This document shows, in pieces, positions 3,213-26,835 of a stretch of DNA of 31,393 nucleotides (positions are counted from its first letter, which is position 1; each line of letters begins with the position of its first letter). Position numbers and translations under genes: made by a program. The stretch covers positions 1 through 31,393 of the IMG/VR virus record IMGVR_UViG_2778261541_000008. One strand, 5' to 3'. The DNA comes from a virus (lineage: Duplodnaviria; Heunggongvirae; Uroviricota; Caudoviricetes). The notes beneath the pieces are model-generated. The model ran no database searches. It saw only the letters and a program-made list of their open reading frames with translations, and was not told where the DNA came from.

Positions 3213-3229
3213 ATATTTATTAGAGCAAT
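3213..3229 (-). promoter_or_regulatory. P1 C1-repressor-type operator (16/17 match to ATTGCTCTAATAAATTT on the minus strand)
   Basis: Plus strand reads atatttattagagcaat, the reverse complement of the 17-bp asymmetric C1 operator consensus as I recall it, with one mismatch. It sits in the divergent intergenic region directly upstream of the minus-strand operon. Confidence 0.6.
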
Positions 3230-18265: not shown

Positions 18266-18282
18266 AAATTTATTAGAGCAAA
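18266..18282 (-). promoter_or_regulatory. C1-type operator upstream of kilA-repL (Op53 equivalent)
   Basis: aaatttattagagcaaa, 16/17 to the reverse complement of ATTGCTCTAATAAATTT, about 70 bp upstream of the kilA start. Confidence 0.65.
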
Positions 18283-19616: not shown

Positions 19617-19669
19617 AGTTACGGCCTCACAATCAGGTTTAACAACCTGCTACCCGCTGTCAAACAGGT

Positions 19670-19760
19670 GGCAGGACGTGACAGGGTTGACAGACTGGCG
19701 ATTGTGAAACCAGCAGGCCGAAGCCTCCCCATCACGCCCCACCATAATTTGGGCGTAACG
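19670..19760 (-). ncRNA. c4: c4-like antisense repressor RNA (approximate boundaries)
   Basis: On the minus-strand transcript, GGCCU and CACAAUC (plus-strand 19700-19719) are separated by 7 nt and are exactly complementary to the contiguous GAUUGUG-AGGCC that covers the icd RBS (plus-strand 19621-19637). Ends not determinable by eye. Confidence 0.4.
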
Positions 19761-19930: not shown

Positions 19931-19947
19931 AAATTTATTAGAGCATT
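19931..19947 (-). promoter_or_regulatory. C1-type operator at the immunity-I promoter (Op51 equivalent)
   Basis: aaatttattagagcatt, 16/17 to the reverse complement of the operator consensus, in the divergent region between c4/icd/ant and the secreted-protein genes. Confidence 0.65.
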
Positions 19948-20042
19948 GTTTGTTTAATAAATACACAATTGGATCTAATAACCTCTTTTTTTAAAGGCGA
20001 AAATATGTACCCTAAATGGGTTATAAGGCAGGTGAGGTTATA

Positions 20043-20690
20043 ATGAGAAAACTATTACTACCGTTATTATTTATGGCTGGGACTGTTAATGCAGCATCAA
20101 GCGTAAAGGAGATTTGTACCGATTATACGAAATACCTTGGGCACGTTTACGGCTTTGCTGTCAGTCAAGATGAATCCATGCGCAAGAAGTTACTGTCAGA
20201 TATGAAACGCCTTAAACTTTCTGAAGCGATGGTGCAGCAAGAACTGTATAAAGTCGCAACCAACGAAAATGCTAAATATCAATATTCTCGCCTGTTAAAT
20301 CCCGACGCAAACGAGATCAATCGAAGCTCTTTCGATTATATGGTAAAGGCATGCGAAACCGCTCCTGATTTTGCTATTCCTAGCTGGGGTGTGCTGGTGG
20401 CGAGCAATGCCGTTAATAAAGAAGACGTTGGAAGAAATGGCATTGATTCAATCAGAAACTCCCCGGGAATGCGCCATCAAAACGTTCAGGGTACGCTTGA
20501 AGAACGGGCCAGGGGGCCGGGTACAAACTCCCCAATGGGAAACCTCTCCCCGGAGGAATTGCAAGAGTATAACCAACGGATGGAGCAGTATGAGAAAGCT
20601 GCACGCGAAAAAATGGAACAACAAAAAAATGGATCTCTTAATACTTTCCAGCAAGGTTTAAAAGCGCTTAATTTACCCTATGAATGGTGA
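20043..20690 (+). CDS. Secreted/periplasmic protein, candidate superinfection-exclusion (Sim-like) factor carrying a Sit-derived motif
   Basis: Start at ATG 20043 (GTGAGG RBS). Signal peptide MRKLLLPLLFMAGTVNA-AS. C-terminal segment GIDSIRNSPGMRHQNVQGTLEERARGPGT matches two segments near the Sit C-terminus. Locus corresponds to the P1 sim region next to c4. Confidence 0.55.
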   Translation: MRKLLLPLLFMAGTVNAASSVKEICTDYTKYLGHVYGFAVSQDESMRKKLLSDMKRLKLSEAMVQQELYKVATNENAKYQYSRLLNPDANEINRSSFDYMVKACETAPDFAIPSWGVLVASNAVNKEDVGRNGIDSIRNSPGMRHQNVQGTLEERARGPGTNSPMGNLSPEELQEYNQRMEQYEKAAREKMEQQKNGSLNTFQQGLKALNLPYEW

Positions 20691-20741
20691 ATATATGGTG
20701 GTTAACTAATTAAAATATTAATATCCAAAGGAGATAAATTA

Positions 20742-21218
20742 ATGCGCATCAAACGATTTTTACTAGTTCTTGCTTTGCTTACTCCGTTTTCATCAATGGC
20801 AAATGTAAGCAAATGGTCAACCGGCGAGACTCATGGTGTTCGTTCTTATGCTGTTTCCAGCAAAGATAATTATACGCTTACATTTGAGTGCGATGTTGGA
20901 TTTAATAATACGGATCCCAATCAAGTAGGAACACGACTACTCACTCTCATGAAAACAGAACCTGGCGGTGAGTCATTTGATGCTAAAAAAGAACAAATAA
21001 CGCTGAAAGTTGGTGATGATGAATATCCTATCAGTTCTATCGGTTCCTCTGTGGGTGATAGTTACTGGTATGGTTTTTGGTCAGATACCCCTGATATGGA
21101 AGTTAAAACATTCGATGCATACGTAGACGGAAAAAAAATCGCAACATTTACGCTACGTAAGGCCGCAGAGCTTTTCAACGCGGCACCTGAAGATGGCTGC
21201 CTGAAGCGCGCAAAATGA
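20742..21218 (+). CDS. Secreted/periplasmic protein of unknown function
   Basis: AAAGGAG RBS; signal peptide MRIKRFLLVLALLTPFSSMA-NV; 158 aa. Confidence 0.6.
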   Translation: MRIKRFLLVLALLTPFSSMANVSKWSTGETHGVRSYAVSSKDNYTLTFECDVGFNNTDPNQVGTRLLTLMKTEPGGESFDAKKEQITLKVGDDEYPISSIGSSVGDSYWYGFWSDTPDMEVKTFDAYVDGKKIATFTLRKAAELFNAAPEDGCLKRAK

Positions 21219-21252
21219 CCTGTCACAAATGACTACTCGTAGAATCGGTTAA

Positions 21253-23442: not shown

Positions 23443-26400
23443 ATGGAAAGAAAAAACGCCAACATTGACGATGTGATAAGGACGGTTGAAACCGCCAGCG
23501 CAAAAGAGCTGGAAGAGCTTGCAGGTATTCGGGAAGCCGTTGAAGATTTGAAAGGGGGGCGAGTTGCTACAGTTGATCCTGTCTCTCGCAGTGTGTCGGC
23601 ATTAAATCGCACAATCGAAAATTCCCGGCCAGACTTTGTGGCCAATGCGCCATCAGTGGACCCTATTGTTGAGGCAATGAAACGGCTTAATTTAGGGGAC
23701 GTTTCTCGTGTAGTTCAGGAGGATGTTGCTCTACAGGAACCGCAGGCCAAATCAACTACGCGAAAGGGTAAAAAACGACGCAAGAAGGCTATAACAGAAG
23801 ATGTAAAGGCGCAACGGACCGAAGCAGCCGAACACGCTCGCGAAATGTTCGGTCAAAAAGGCGGTGCGCAAAAAAGCCAAAACCAACGCGATGCGCGTGG
23901 TCGTTTTATTGGAAAGTCAGGGAGTAAGGCCGCAGCGGAAGATGCCCGTGCTGAACGTGCTGAAAAGGCCAGGCGCAAAGAGGATGATGAGCGTCTAAAT
24001 GCTGAATCAGGTTTATTAAAAAAACTGTCAAAAGTAGCTGAAGGCATAGGTAACCCTTCAGAGACTCGTGCCGTCGATGCGTTAGGTTATGCCGTTGCTG
24101 GTCCATTGTGGGCCGCAGGGAAGGAGCTTGGCGGGATATCAAAAGAAGTTGGTGGATCGCTTAATGGTGCCAGAAAGTCTATTGCCGATGTGATTCGTGG
24201 CAATGACGATAACAGCCGTAGAAAAGGTTTTTTTAGGCGTAAATCGCAAAATAGTGCCGATGTCGTTCAGGTTAACACCCAAAAACGGACGGTTCAGGAA
24301 CTTCAGGAGCAGACCAGCGAAATTAAAGAGGGCAATGACAAGATTCTCCGCGCCCTTGATCAGATAGCCAAAAACACCGGTAAAAAGAAGGGCGGCTTGC
24401 TGTCCAAACTATTTAGCCTGTTAGGGAAGGGGGCCGGTGGCGTCGCGTCGTTGTTAATGGGGCGTGGCATGCTGAAAAAAGCTGGAGCACTCGCTTTTGG
24501 CGCTCTGGGGGCAAAGAAACTTGTAGGAATGCTACGCGGTGGTGGCAAGAAGACTCTCGCCCATGAAGGCGGAGATTTGGCTGCCCGGGCAGCAGGTAAA
24601 CTTGGATTAAAGGCAGTTGGTAAAGGGGCGTTACGCGCAATTCCCCTAGTCGGCACAGTGGCTGGAGGTATTTATGATGCGGTAACCGGTTGGAATGATA
24701 CAGAAGCGCAACGTCGAGCGTTTGGGCTTAAATCAGGACAAGATCCATCATTCCAGCAAAAAGCCGCTTATACGTTAGCTAATGTTCTTGATATGGGGGG
24801 ACTGGTATCTGGTATTAGCAGCGCCATTGGTGAGGTTCTCAAATCACTTGGATTTGAGGATATCGGCAATATGTTGCAATCATTTTCGACGGAAAGTATT
24901 GCCCAGGCCATTGATAGTGGGATTACCAACTTAGAAACATATATTTCTAACCTTGGCGACACCATTTCTACCAAGTTCGATGATTACACAGCAAAGATTG
25001 GTGATGCTGTTTCAGCATGGTTTAGCGATACATCTAATAAGCTGCTTGAAAAGCTGGATGCCATCAAAGACTTCTTTACTGTCGATAACCTGAAACAGGT
25101 TTTCAGTGATGCAATTGATAGTGCAATTGATTTCATTAAGAACCCAGGGAAACACATTAAAGAGGCGGCTGGTAATATTTGGGATGGGGTTAAAAATTTA
25201 CCAGGTAAAGCATTAGATGCAGCGGTTGATGCCGTTAAAAATACCCCTGCGGCAATGATTGTATCAAAAATACCCAATCCGATCGGCGAGGCTAATGCGA
25301 AAGAAATCACTCCAGAGTTAAAAGCTCCGGTTAATAGCCACCAGGAGACGTCTGATTCTAAAACTGAATCCGATGCCAAACAGAGTAATATTGCTACCCG
25401 CGTGATAAATGCGGCACTGGACACAGCGAAAGATAGCAATAAAACAGTTAAACAAACTGCCAATCAGATTATCAATGCAAATGCCGTAGAAACGGGCAAT
25501 AGCGCGTTGCAGAAAATTGATAAAGCTATTGGTCAAAATAGCTCGTCATCATCGTCGCTTAATACCACTGGCACCAGGAATGACATTCAGAAAGCTGCGG
25601 ATACTTACAACAATGGCAACTTAGATGTAAAAGTCGGAAGTCTTGGCGCTGAAGGTAAGGCAAATCTCGATAAGTTGGCTCCGTATTTTGCCGAACTAGA
25701 GAATAAATACGGTCTTCCAGAAGGCACTCTTTACGCGATTGCTGCAACTGAATCTGGTGGTAATCCGTATGCAAAATCCCAAACCGGTGCTCTGGGGATG
25801 TTTCAGTTCACGGGGATTGCTCGTGAAGAGACTGGCTTAGCTGAAGGTGAATCGTTTGATCCTGTGAAATCGGCAGAAGCTGCGGCTCTTCTCATGAGCA
25901 AGTATCTGAAGCAAGCCAATGGAGACTTAAACGAGGCCATCACTGCATATAATGCTGGGTTTGGCACTATTAATAAGTGGAAAAAAGGCACAGGTGACTT
26001 ATCGAAAGAAAACCGTGAGTACGCGATCAAGGTCAATACTCATCGTGCTCGCTATTTAGGTGGTGAAATCTATACACCTGGAGCAGGAGCACAGGGTGGG
26101 GCGCAATATGGAGTGAGGGGACCACTGCCTGATAACGCTGTTATCGATCAGTCTACTGGCCTGGCGTTTACCCCTGGTGATAGCCCGTTTGAGAAAGGCG
26201 GTCTGGTCGACAAAATCGGCAATGCTGTTGGCGTTAACGATCTGGTCAACAAATTCATGAATGGCCGGGGGATGCGTCGGGAAGTCGTTCAGGGAACGCT
26301 AGAAGAACGTGCACGAGGGAAGGGGACCGCAACAGCAGCTGGCAATGTGTATGTTGATACCCCGATGCCAGTTGAAGAGGCGCGTCCGGTGGCCAACAAC

Positions 26401-26835
26401 TCAAGTTACTTTGACCAGCTCGGCGCACAAATGGGGATTGATGGACTATTCGATAAACTCCGCAACTCGCCGGGGATGCGGAAAAATAATGCGCCTGAAC
26501 CAGCCTCCACGTCCCAGGTGACGACTGCCGCCAACGATTTGCAGCAACCAACCGGTCGTATGCAGATAGACGGACAGGTTATTAGTGACCTTGGTGGCTC
26601 CGGTGCCAAGCCGACAATGCAGTTGGCTGATAATACCGTTTCACTTGATGGTGAAACGAAGCGGCTGTTTGCGCAGATGACCTCATTGCTTGCCAGGATT
26701 GAAGAGCACACCAAAGACTCGGCGAAAGGCCAGGGAACTGTCGTAAAGGTCAGCACGCCTCAGCCGGGCGTTATGCGCACGGTACCACTGTCAATTGATG
26801 ATCCGTTGATGAATGACTACGCGAGAGTTGATTGA
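23443..26835 (+). CDS. sit: Sit-like tape-measure / structural injection transglycosylase
   Basis: 1130 aa. N-terminal basic coiled-coil region; Gly-rich hydrophobic repeats (GKGAGGVASLLMGRGMLKKAGALAFGALGAKK); soluble lytic transglycosylase domain around nt 25680-26020 (GTLYAIAATESGGNPYA ... AYNAGFGTINKW). Confidence 0.85.
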   Translation: MERKNANIDDVIRTVETASAKELEELAGIREAVEDLKGGRVATVDPVSRSVSALNRTIENSRPDFVANAPSVDPIVEAMKRLNLGDVSRVVQEDVALQEPQAKSTTRKGKKRRKKAITEDVKAQRTEAAEHAREMFGQKGGAQKSQNQRDARGRFIGKSGSKAAAEDARAERAEKARRKEDDERLNAESGLLKKLSKVAEGIGNPSETRAVDALGYAVAGPLWAAGKELGGISKEVGGSLNGARKSIADVIRGNDDNSRRKGFFRRKSQNSADVVQVNTQKRTVQELQEQTSEIKEGNDKILRALDQIAKNTGKKKGGLLSKLFSLLGKGAGGVASLLMGRGMLKKAGALAFGALGAKKLVGMLRGGGKKTLAHEGGDLAARAAGKLGLKAVGKGALRAIPLVGTVAGGIYDAVTGWNDTEAQRRAFGLKSGQDPSFQQKAAYTLANVLDMGGLVSGISSAIGEVLKSLGFEDIGNMLQSFSTESIAQAIDSGITNLETYISNLGDTISTKFDDYTAKIGDAVSAWFSDTSNKLLEKLDAIKDFFTVDNLKQVFSDAIDSAIDFIKNPGKHIKEAAGNIWDGVKNLPGKALDAAVDAVKNTPAAMIVSKIPNPIGEANAKEITPELKAPVNSHQETSDSKTESDAKQSNIATRVINAALDTAKDSNKTVKQTANQIINANAVETGNSALQKIDKAIGQNSSSSSSLNTTGTRNDIQKAADTYNNGNLDVKVGSLGAEGKANLDKLAPYFAELENKYGLPEGTLYAIAATESGGNPYAKSQTGALGMFQFTGIAREETGLAEGESFDPVKSAEAAALLMSKYLKQANGDLNEAITAYNAGFGTINKWKKGTGDLSKENREYAIKVNTHRARYLGGEIYTPGAGAQGGAQYGVRGPLPDNAVIDQSTGLAFTPGDSPFEKGGLVDKIGNAVGVNDLVNKFMNGRGMRREVVQGTLEERARGKGTATAAGNVYVDTPMPVEEARPVANNSSYFDQLGAQMGIDGLFDKLRNSPGMRKNNAPEPASTSQVTTAANDLQQPTGRMQIDGQVISDLGGSGAKPTMQLADNTVSLDGETKRLFAQMTSLLARIEEHTKDSAKGQGTVVKVSTPQPGVMRTVPLSIDDPLMNDYARVD

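What the first reader, a model, noticed from the sequence alone, without database searches (positions are those of the whole stretch)
20043..20690. Secreted Sim-like protein copies a motif from the C-terminus of the injected transglycosylase Sit
The 215-aa signal-peptide protein encoded next to the immunity-I promoter contains GIDSIRNSPGMRHQNVQGTLEERARGPGT. Sit contains GRGMRREVVQGTLEERARGKGT (nt ~26261-26330) and GIDGLFDKLRNSPGMRK (nt ~26434-26484). The similarity is at protein level, with the DNA diverged, which argues for selection on the peptide rather than a recent duplication. A periplasmic protein mimicking a segment of the ejected tape-measure protein is a plausible way to block genome delivery by superinfecting relatives, by competing for a host envelope or inner-membrane partner. 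That would give a mechanistic handle on Sim-type exclusion.
Basis: partly seen in the sequence, partly recalled or inferred. Interest (0 to 1): 0.65.

Follow-up and report, generated by a model that had tools for sequence, protein, structure and literature searches.

The report
Secreted prophage protein copies tape-measure motif
A P1-like prophage encodes, at its superinfection-exclusion locus, a secreted protein carrying a conserved ~30-residue peptide otherwise found only in the phage's own injected tape-measure protein, which suggests, but does not prove, a decoy that blocks infection by related phages.

Summary
ORF 20043-20690 encodes a 215-aa protein with a signal peptide. Its residues 122-168 match Sit residues 927-969 (BLASTP E=6e-9; no shuffle of 2000 comes close), and a second partial copy lies at Sit 998-1014. 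Synonymous sites are scrambled, so this is not a recent duplication or gene conversion.

A search of 1.84 billion proteins found the motif only in Sit-type tape-measure proteins and in this small protein family. It is kept in diverged E. coli, Salmonella and Klebsiella relatives. Within the small protein it is about as conserved as the folded N-terminal domain, although it is predicted to be disordered. Cognate pairs show weak co-variation.

"Sim-like" is wrong in one respect: the protein is unrelated to P1 SimC. Instead, P1's 52-aa SimA is the truncated 5' remnant of this gene. The locus is a swappable cassette at the known hypervariable sim region.

The exclusion-by-mimicry mechanism is plausible and fits known exclusion proteins that target tape-measure proteins (T4 Imm, HK97 gp15, Ltp). 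It is untested, and no binding partner is known. I rate this an unreported, testable lead of moderate to high interest.

The parts
20043..20690 (+). Gene for the 215-aa secreted protein (here 'X215'), the full-length form of P1 SimA (phrog_3933)
   Evidence: ORF and translation. phrog_3933 hit at 1e-136. P1 SimA (52 aa) is identical over about the first 45 residues. 28 relatives in P1-like elements.
20043..20093 (+). Signal peptide, aa 1-17, MRKLLLPLLFMAGTVNA, with the predicted cleavage before ASS
   Evidence: Read directly from the sequence: a positive n-region, a hydrophobic core and a VNA-A cleavage site. There is no lipobox. N16 and A17 are invariant in the family.
20094..20417 (+). Conserved all-helical N-terminal domain (aa 18-125) with two invariant cysteines, C25 and C104
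20406..20546 (+). Sit-like linear motif in X215 (aa 122-168; core NSPGMRHQNVQGTLEERARGPGT at 20457-20525)
   Evidence: BLASTP E=6e-9, coordinates. Predicted disordered, pLDDT 48-58. Yet 62% pairwise identity among diverse family members, against 20-27% just downstream.
20550..20666 (+). Variable C-terminal tail, a long predicted helix (aa 170-208)
   Evidence: Helix 170-208 in the model. Other family members replace it with cysteine-containing modules or lack it altogether, as in the 163-aa form that ends right after the motif.
23443..26835 (+). sit: tape-measure protein and injection transglycosylase, 1130 aa
   Evidence: ORF. SLT domain at aa 748-857, E=9e-27. P1 and P7 annotation. Described as the tape-measure protein and reported ejected on contraction in PMC12810830. 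Essential by CRISPRi in PMC10695390.
26221..26349 (+). Sit motif copy 1 (aa 927-969; core NGRGMRREVVQGTLEERARGKGT at 26260-26328)
   Evidence: Conserved in all Sit homologues examined, including distant ones. Lies in a low-confidence, probably disordered region between the SLT domain and the conserved C-terminal end.
26434..26484 (+). Sit partial motif copy 2 (GIDGLFDKLRNSPGMRK, aa 998-1014), inside an insertion of about 53 aa specific to E. coli P1/P7-type Sit
   Evidence: The insertion is absent from the Salmonella and Klebsiella Sit proteins (L005-L008).
20742..21218 (+). Second cassette gene: a 158-aa protein with a signal peptide (phrog_3429, unknown function) that travels with X215
   Evidence: ORF. 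phrog_3429 hit at 3e-80. Diverged homologues lie next to X genes in L034 (29% identity, E=5e-26) and in L085. No similarity to Sit or to any other P1 protein.
19931..19947 (-). C1 repressor operator (Op51/Oc4) between the divergent c4 promoters and the X215 promoter region
   Evidence: Consensus match with 1 mismatch; 3 sites in the window against 0.01 expected. Matches the P1 annotation of Oc4 and of the predicted PsimA immediately downstream.
20183..21224 (+). Replaceable cassette relative to P1 (P1 carries simB-simC here). Relative to P7 the replaced stretch is 19946-21219.
   Evidence: blastn break points. The sim region is listed as hypervariable region 4 of P1-like phage-plasmids in PMC9603915.

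Best explanation
X215 is a periplasmic protein encoded at the superinfection-exclusion (sim) cassette site of a P1-like phage-plasmid. It has three parts: a cleavable signal peptide, a folded helical domain, and a flexible stretch of about 30-45 residues (D-x-F-x-N-x-x-G-M-R-H-Q-x-V-x-G-T-L-x-E-R-A-x-G-x-G). The flexible stretch copies a linear motif from the disordered region of the ejected tape-measure protein Sit, between its transglycosylase domain and its conserved C-terminal end.

Most likely mechanism (inferred): in the periplasm the motif on X215 competes with the same motif on the Sit of an incoming P1-like phage for whatever that motif must engage. That could be a host envelope or inner-membrane factor, another copy of Sit, or another ejected protein. 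Genome delivery would then stall after adsorption, giving exclusion specific to P1-like phages.

Shown here: the motif, its significance, its restriction to these two families, its conservation, the predicted secretion signal, and the position at the sim locus.

Inferred: periplasmic residence, expression from the prophage, exclusion activity, and competition as the mode of action.
For: 1. The match is far beyond chance and unique in the genome.
2. A profile of the motif searched against 1.84 billion representative proteins returned only 12 hits. These were Sit-type tape-measure proteins, X-family proteins and fragments of these, plus two repeat artefacts. No host protein was hit.
3. Sit is the likely source. 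Distant Sit homologues keep the motif in loci that have no X gene: P0046 (L083) has one copy, and P0050 (L084) has two GMRHQV copies.
4. Selection acts on the peptide:
- Synonymous third positions match in only 26 of 68 identical codons across 7 genomes.
- Yet the motif is 62% conserved among diverse X proteins, against 68% for the folded domain and 20-27% for the following segments.
- A common 163-aa variant ends directly after the motif.
- A distant 176-aa relative, P0049, keeps NAPGMRHQAVKGSMAERARGDGT.
5. In both proteins the motif lies in a low-confidence, probably disordered stretch, as expected for a short linear binding motif.
6. There is weak co-variation with the cognate Sit. The N-xx-GMR dipeptide matches in several lineages, and a GV-P variant occurs in both proteins of L085. 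Cognate pairing is the best of 120 permutations if Sit copy 2 is allowed.
7. Position and context. The gene occupies the slot where P1 carries sim, next to the C1 operator. [quoted passage not shown] All cassette variants at this site encode proteins with signal peptides.
8. Precedent. Exclusion proteins that act on tape-measure proteins are known: T4 Imm binds the TMP (bioRxiv 10.64898/2026.03.06.709160), and HK97 gp15 and TP-J34 Ltp are listed.
Against: - No functional data of any kind exist for this protein, and no binding partner of the motif is known.
- Sit was unresolved in the P1 virion structure.
- Expression in the lysogen is not shown. The promoter is only the predicted PsimA, it was not picked up by the consensus scan, and it abuts a C1 operator.
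- From memory: P1 Sim was detected with multicopy clones, so single-copy activity at this locus is uncertain.
- About half of the family has lost the second half of the motif.
- The co-variation rests on 5 lineages and 1-2 residues each. It drops to p=0.05-0.08 when only Sit copy 1 is used.
- Many E. coli elements pair AP in X with SP in Sit.
- PADLOC has no model matching the protein.
Confidence: 0.42

Rival explanations
1. Direct Sit binder with a pseudo-ligand. The helical N-terminal domain of X215 is a receptor for the Sit motif, and X215's own copy is an intramolecular placeholder that is displaced when incoming Sit arrives. X215 would then clamp Sit directly, as T4 Imm or Ltp bind their tape-measure proteins, rather than compete for a third party.
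For: - The N-domain and at least the N-xx-GMR-x-Q half of the motif are always linked, whatever the C-terminal module.
- Co-variation of both motifs is expected if both must fit one groove.
- Direct TMP binding is the documented mode for T4 Imm.
Against: - AlphaFold2 does not dock the motif onto the domain (pLDDT 48-58), though the alignment was shallow at 18 sequences.
- The N-domain has no detectable relative of known function.
Confidence: 0.15
2. Shared envelope-targeting or chaperone tag. The motif binds a general periplasmic component, such as peptidoglycan, a chaperone or a protease. It merely localises or stabilises both proteins, and X215's real function lies in its N-domain and need not be exclusion.
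For: - The motif is disordered and modular, and it sits between unrelated domains in both proteins.
[quoted passage not shown] 2015 title, listed).
- The C-terminal modules of the family vary freely.
Against: - A general tag should appear in other secreted phage or host proteins. An exhaustive search found it in only these two families.
- The lineage-specific matching of variable positions is not expected for a generic tag.
Confidence: 0.15
3. Evolutionary relic. A fragment of sit was captured once by illegitimate recombination into a neighbouring gene 2.7 kb away, and it persists without a function tied to Sit.
For: - The two genes are closely linked.
- The sim site is a recombination hotspot with several cassette types.
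- Half of the family has replaced the distal half of the motif.
Against: - Synonymous sites are saturated while the peptide is retained across E. coli, Salmonella and Klebsiella elements and in a relative with a much more diverged N-terminal domain.
- Neutral disordered sequence would have decayed, as the adjacent segments have (20-27% identity).
- A short form of N-domain plus motif alone is common.
Confidence: 0.1
4. Inhibitor of the Sit transglycosylase. X215 would act like T4 Sp or the periplasmic immunity proteins of type VI amidase effectors, blocking peptidoglycan cleavage by incoming Sit, with the motif helping to recruit it.
For: - Small, all-helical, disulfide-capable periplasmic domain.
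Against: - The motif is not predicted to contact the SLT domain in the Sit model.
- Nothing links the N-domain to lysozyme-inhibitor families.
Confidence: 0.06

Closest known systems
P1 SimA (52 aa, 'putative superimmunity accessory function')
   Same: Same gene start, same signal peptide and same first ~45 residues. The DNA is 96% identical up to window 20182. Same position and orientation beside Op51.
   Different: P1 simA is a truncated stump. Homology stops at codon ~47, a stop codon follows, and the start codon of simB corresponds to internal Met46 of X215. P1 SimA has neither the folded domain nor the Sit motif.
P1 SimC (the Sim superimmunity / exclusion protein)
   Same: Same cassette site, signal peptide, non-essential prophage accessory gene. 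Sim is cited as preventing DNA entry by superinfecting P1.
   Different: No sequence similarity, and a different PHROG family (14355 vs 3933). SimC has no similarity to Sit or to any other P1 protein.
Exclusion proteins that act on tape-measure proteins: T4 Imm, HK97 gp15, Streptococcus phage TP-J34 Ltp
   Same: Phage-encoded envelope proteins that stop genome entry after adsorption, with the tape-measure protein as target or determinant.
   Different: None of these is reported to carry a copy of a tape-measure segment. They are integral membrane proteins or lipoproteins, whereas X215 is a soluble secreted protein. There is no sequence relationship, and the activity of X215 is unproven.
P7 Upf50.5 / Upf50.0 (lipoprotein plus YfjT/DUF5384 protein)
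   Same: An alternative cassette at the same site, also made of exported proteins. YfjT-family genes sit beside X genes in Salmonella and Klebsiella elements.
   Different: No similarity to X215 or to Sit.

Membership tests
P1 SimC (Sim superimmunity protein, phrog_14355) | Sequence homology to SimC | tested here: not met
   PHROG and Pfam hits differ. SimC was absent from the X215 homologue search and from BLASTP against all P1 ORFs.
P1 SimC (Sim superimmunity protein, phrog_14355) | Signal-peptide protein encoded between Op51/c4 and the late promoter LPsit | tested here: met
P1 SimC (Sim superimmunity protein, phrog_14355) | Blocks P1 infection after adsorption and before DNA entry | not testable with these tools
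   Needs plating and DNA-entry assays.
SimA family (phrog_3933; 'simA domain protein') | Homology to P1 SimA over its whole length, in the same genomic position | tested here: met
   Database relatives are named 'simA domain protein'.
Tape-measure-directed superinfection exclusion proteins (T4 Imm, HK97 gp15, Ltp) | Envelope location | tested here: inconclusive
   A Sec signal peptide and two invariant cysteines predict a periplasmic protein. Export was not demonstrated.
Tape-measure-directed superinfection exclusion proteins (T4 Imm, HK97 gp15, Ltp) | Physical or genetic interaction with the tape-measure protein of the excluded phage | not testable with these tools
   Only a shared motif is shown. 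Escape mutants or binding assays are needed.
Tape-measure-directed superinfection exclusion proteins (T4 Imm, HK97 gp15, Ltp) | Sequence or fold homology to a known member | tested here: not met
   No Pfam, NCBIfam, PADLOC, PDB or BFVD relative.
Sit / tape-measure family (phrog_2533) | Full-length homology with an SLT domain and tape-measure architecture | tested here: not met
   Only profile positions 929-972 of 1130 are matched.
PTP-like phytase (PF14566) | Score above the gathering threshold, and a catalytic C-x5-R loop | tested here: not met
   26.6 bits against a cut-off of 27. Neither cysteine (C25, C104) is followed by Arg at +6 in the sequence.
YfjT / DUF5384 | Sequence homology | tested here: not met
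   No BLASTP similarity to the neighbouring YfjT protein of L005. P7 Upf50.0 was not compared with X215 directly.

The most novel reading that the evidence does not exclude
X215 is a secreted decoy built by grafting the functional docking peptide of a myophage tape-measure protein onto a periplasmic carrier domain. It excludes P1-like phages by competitive mimicry. The motif in Sit and the motif in X215 are locked in an arms race, which would explain the lineage-matched variants, the duplication of the motif in some Sit proteins as an avidity escape, and the turnover of the sim cassette. This would be the first exclusion protein that works by imitating the injected protein rather than by binding it or the receptor. 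It would also pinpoint the peptide through which a contractile-tail phage engages the cell envelope during genome delivery.
Probability: 0.3. Interest if true: 0.8.

Novelty: new variant of a known kind. Interest (0 to 1): 0.6.

Why it matters
How P1 and other contractile-tail phages get DNA across the periplasm and inner membrane is largely unknown, as is how Sim-type exclusion stops it. Sit could not be resolved in the P1 structure.

A conserved linear peptide shared only by Sit and a secreted protein at the exclusion locus marks a specific ~30-residue stretch of the tape-measure protein as functionally important. It also supplies a ready-made competitor for experiments: peptide pull-downs, escape mutants and motif swaps.

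The finding corrects an annotation as well. P1 simA is a gene stump, and the intact gene is carried by about 2% of complete E. coli genomes on P1-like phage-plasmids, many of which spread resistance genes. Exclusion among these elements would therefore shape their epidemiology.

Tried and rejected
- **Homology to SimC, SimB, P7 Upf50.0 or Upf50.5: none.** The 'Sim-like' label holds only by position and through SimA.
- **Recent duplication or gene conversion between sit and X215: rejected.** Third-codon positions do not match.
- **Low-complexity or chance match: rejected**.
- **Mimicry of a host protein: rejected.** The exhaustive profile search found no host hits.
- **Other cassette proteins mimicking other virion proteins: none found** among all P1 ORFs.
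- **PTP-like phytase hit: sub-threshold, and the catalytic loop is absent**.
- **Motif-profile search with the word-indexed database: uninformative.** It returned only fragments, because the prefilter does not suit a 46-aa query.
- **Docking of the Sit motif on its SLT domain: not predicted**.
- **Association between cassette type and Sit copy-2 variant: weak, and explicable by linkage**.
- **Species-representative genome scan: only 4 loci**.
- **P0049: both contigs too short to recover its cognate Sit**.
- **P1 genome paper (PMC523184): not held**.

Full report
**Identity of the window.** The window is a P1-like (Punavirus) phage-plasmid. The region around the finding is 98.4% identical to Escherichia phage vB_EcoM-Ro157c2YLVW. 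Its flanks are 96-97% identical to P1 and P7, and the first 19 kb match P1 and P7 at about 98%.

The window is in the opposite orientation to the P1 record. The gene order is ant1 - icd - C4 RNA (19664-19749, minus strand; Rfam RF01695) - C1 operator (19931-19947). On the plus strand there follow the 215-aa ORF (20043-20690), a 158-aa ORF (20742-21218), pmgC, tub, pmgB, sit (23443-26835), pmgA and bplA.

The 215-aa protein, called X215 here, begins MRKLLLPLLFMAGTVNA|ASS. This is a standard Sec signal peptide, preceded by a strong ribosome-binding site.
- Residues 122-168 align with Sit 927-969 (23/47 identical, BLASTP E=6e-9). Residues 134-148 also align with Sit 1003-1017 (E=0.007).
- The local alignment score is 101, against 40 +/- 5.5 (maximum 69) for 2000 shuffles.
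- Sit is the only cross-match of X215 among all ORFs of the window and of a complete P1 genome.
- The PHROG profile of the Sit family detects the same stretch.
- The DNA has diverged. In the 23-residue core, 17 residues are identical but only 7 of them share the third codon base. Over seven genomes the figure is 26 of 68.

This excludes a recent duplication and ongoing gene conversion.

**What the gene is.** It is not a SimC homologue. P1 SimC and SimB, and the P7 proteins at this site, show no similarity to it.

P1's 52-aa SimA (MSYKAGEVIMRKLLLPLLFMAGTVNAASSVKEICTDYTKYLGHVYAFAINDY) is identical to the start of X215 over about 45 residues.
- The P1 and window DNAs are 96% identical up to window 20182, then unrelated until 21225, just upstream of the late promoter LPsit.
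- The simB start codon corresponds to internal Met46 of X215.
- P1 simA is therefore the stump left when a simB-simC cassette replaced most of an X215-type gene.
- P7 carries a third cassette, a lipoprotein plus a YfjT/DUF5384 protein, with its left border at the C1 operator.

The sim region is already listed as one of eight hypervariable regions of P1-like phage-plasmids (PMC9603915). I found no paper in the held library that notes the simA relationship or the Sit motif.

X215 belongs to phrog_3933, of unknown function, and has no match in Pfam above threshold, NCBIfam or PADLOC. The cassette is present in 118 of 5426 complete E. coli genomes, almost always on plasmids of about 95 kb, and is annotated 'hypothetical protein'.

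**Anatomy.** AlphaFold2, run with the family alignment, gives three regions:
- a confident all-helical domain at residues 20-125 (pLDDT above 90);
- a low-confidence stretch at 130-168 that contains the motif (pLDDT 48-58);
- a long C-terminal helix at 170-208.

The domain has two invariant cysteines, C25 and C104, which would be compatible with a periplasmic disulfide (my inference). It has no structural relative in the PDB or BFVD. A model of Sit 700-1130 shows a confident SLT domain. Everything after it is low confidence, including the motif, and the motif does not dock on the SLT domain. In both proteins, then, the motif behaves as a short linear motif in a flexible region.

**Conservation and distribution.** Relatives of X215 occur in P1-like elements of E. 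coli, Salmonella and Klebsiella, always at the same site. The N-domain is conserved, while the C-terminal part is modular.
- Every one of 18 aligned members keeps N-x-x-G-M-R-x-Q. About half keep the full V-x-G-T-L-x-E-R-A-x-G-x-G continuation, and the rest switch to cysteine-containing modules.
- A common 163-aa form ends immediately after the motif.
- Among six diverse full-motif members, the motif is 62% identical. The folded domain is 68% identical, and the segments after the motif are 20-27% identical.
- In Sit the motif is conserved in every homologue examined. These include the Salmonella and Klebsiella proteins, which have a single copy, and a more distant 1124-aa homologue (P0046; 45% identical to the window Sit C-terminal region in the alignment), with NAPGMRHQVATGSMADRAYG.
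- A 1367-aa homologue has two GMRHQV copies.
- The loci of those two distant homologues have no X gene, so Sit is the probable source of the motif.
- The E. coli P1/P7-type Sit carries an insertion of about 53 aa that holds the partial second copy.

A 44-position profile of the motif was run with HMMER against 1.84 billion representative proteins. It returned 12 hits: Sit-type proteins, X-family proteins (including a distant 176-aa member, P0049, that keeps NAPGMRHQAVKGSMAERARGDGT) and fragments of these, plus two obvious repeat artefacts. The motif is therefore private to these two families and does not copy a host protein.

**Co-variation.** The variable positions tend to match between X and the Sit of the same element:
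- N-SP-GMR in both for the window (Sit copy 2);
- N-SR- in both for L005;
- N-AP- in X and S-AP- or N-AP- in Sit for L006, L007 and L055;
- N-AR- in both for L050;
- a G-x-G-V-x-P ending in both for L085, where other lineages have G-x-G-T.

With five independent full-motif lineages, the cognate pairing gives the highest total similarity of all 120 possible pairings (p=0.008) when Sit copy 2 may supply the first eight positions. With copy 1 only, p is 0.05-0.08.

Many E. coli elements pair AP with SP, and L008 pairs AP with SR. I regard this as suggestive only. A paper on D6-like prophages independently noted that variants differed near simB and in sit (PMC6799933).

**Mechanism.** The facts point to a function of X215 that is tied to Sit through this peptide. 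These facts are: a private motif, selection on the peptide, presentation on a flexible arm of a secreted protein, and residence in the slot where P1 keeps its exclusion genes.

Sit is the tape-measure protein and carries a transglycosylase domain. It is essential (PMC10695390) and is released on tail contraction (PMC12810830). Exclusion proteins that act on tape-measure proteins are established. T4 Imm binds the T4 tape-measure protein, and HK97 gp15 and Ltp are further cases.

I consider competitive mimicry the most likely mode (0.42): X215 occupies the partner that the Sit motif must engage. The main alternatives are:
- The N-domain binds the Sit motif and X215's own copy is a pseudo-ligand (0.15).
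- The motif is a general envelope tag (0.15). This fits poorly with its absence from all other proteins.
- It is a decaying relic (0.10). This fits poorly with its conservation.
- X215 inhibits the transglycosylase (0.06). This rests only on noise-level fold hits.

None of these can be settled with sequence tools. Expression in the lysogen, export, exclusion and the partner all remain to be shown.

**Verdict.** The locus and the logic are right, the family label is wrong, and the mechanism is an untested but well-motivated hypothesis. It would be a new variant (mimicry) of a known kind of system (tape-measure-directed superinfection exclusion).

Noticed in passing
window 20742-21218; L034:8581-9087; L085:8146-8640: A 158-aa signal-peptide protein (phrog_3429, unknown function) sits next to X genes in three cassettes. 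It has diverged to 29% identity in L034, where the neighbouring X N-domain is 98% identical to the window's. This suggests a functional pair. It has no similarity to Sit or to any P1 protein.
   Followed up: partly
L001:7617-8114 (P1 simA-simB) vs window 20016-20190: P1 simA is a truncated remnant of the X215 gene. The simB start codon corresponds to internal Met46 of X215, so the left junction of the P1 simB-simC cassette lies inside an older gene.
   Followed up: yes
window 26350-26550 (Sit aa ~970-1036): E. coli P1/P7-type Sit has an insertion of about 53 aa, absent from Salmonella and Klebsiella Sit, that carries a partial second copy of the motif. A distant 1367-aa Sit homologue (P0050, L084) has independently acquired two GMRHQV copies.
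   Followed up: partly
P0002, P0004, P0005, P0007, P0008, P0017; window 20371-20661, overlapping ORF in another reading frame: Several database entries of exactly 205 aa. In P0008 the sequence switches, at the start of the motif, into the overlapping ORF that ends at window 20661. All six may be single-base-deletion frameshifts ending at that stop. Most are singletons from read-archive assemblies, so they may be sequencing errors rather than real variants.
   Followed up: no
L005:9156-9650, L006:8914-9192, L007:8954-9232, L008:8591-9058; P7 L003:8355-8894: YfjT/DUF5384-family secreted proteins recur at the same cassette site, either with an X gene (Salmonella and Klebsiella elements) or without one (P7). 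They may be another exclusion-locus component of unknown function.
   Followed up: no
L034:9074-10147: The cassette with the 163-aa X variant carries an extra 357-aa ORF of unknown function between the 168-aa gene and pmgC.
   Followed up: no
window 3213-3229, 18266-18282, 19931-19947 (all minus strand): Three near-consensus C1 repressor operators in the window, against 0.01 expected by chance. The second and third lie where P1 annotates the operators upstream of kilA and of c4; the first was not mapped to a P1 feature here.
   Followed up: partly
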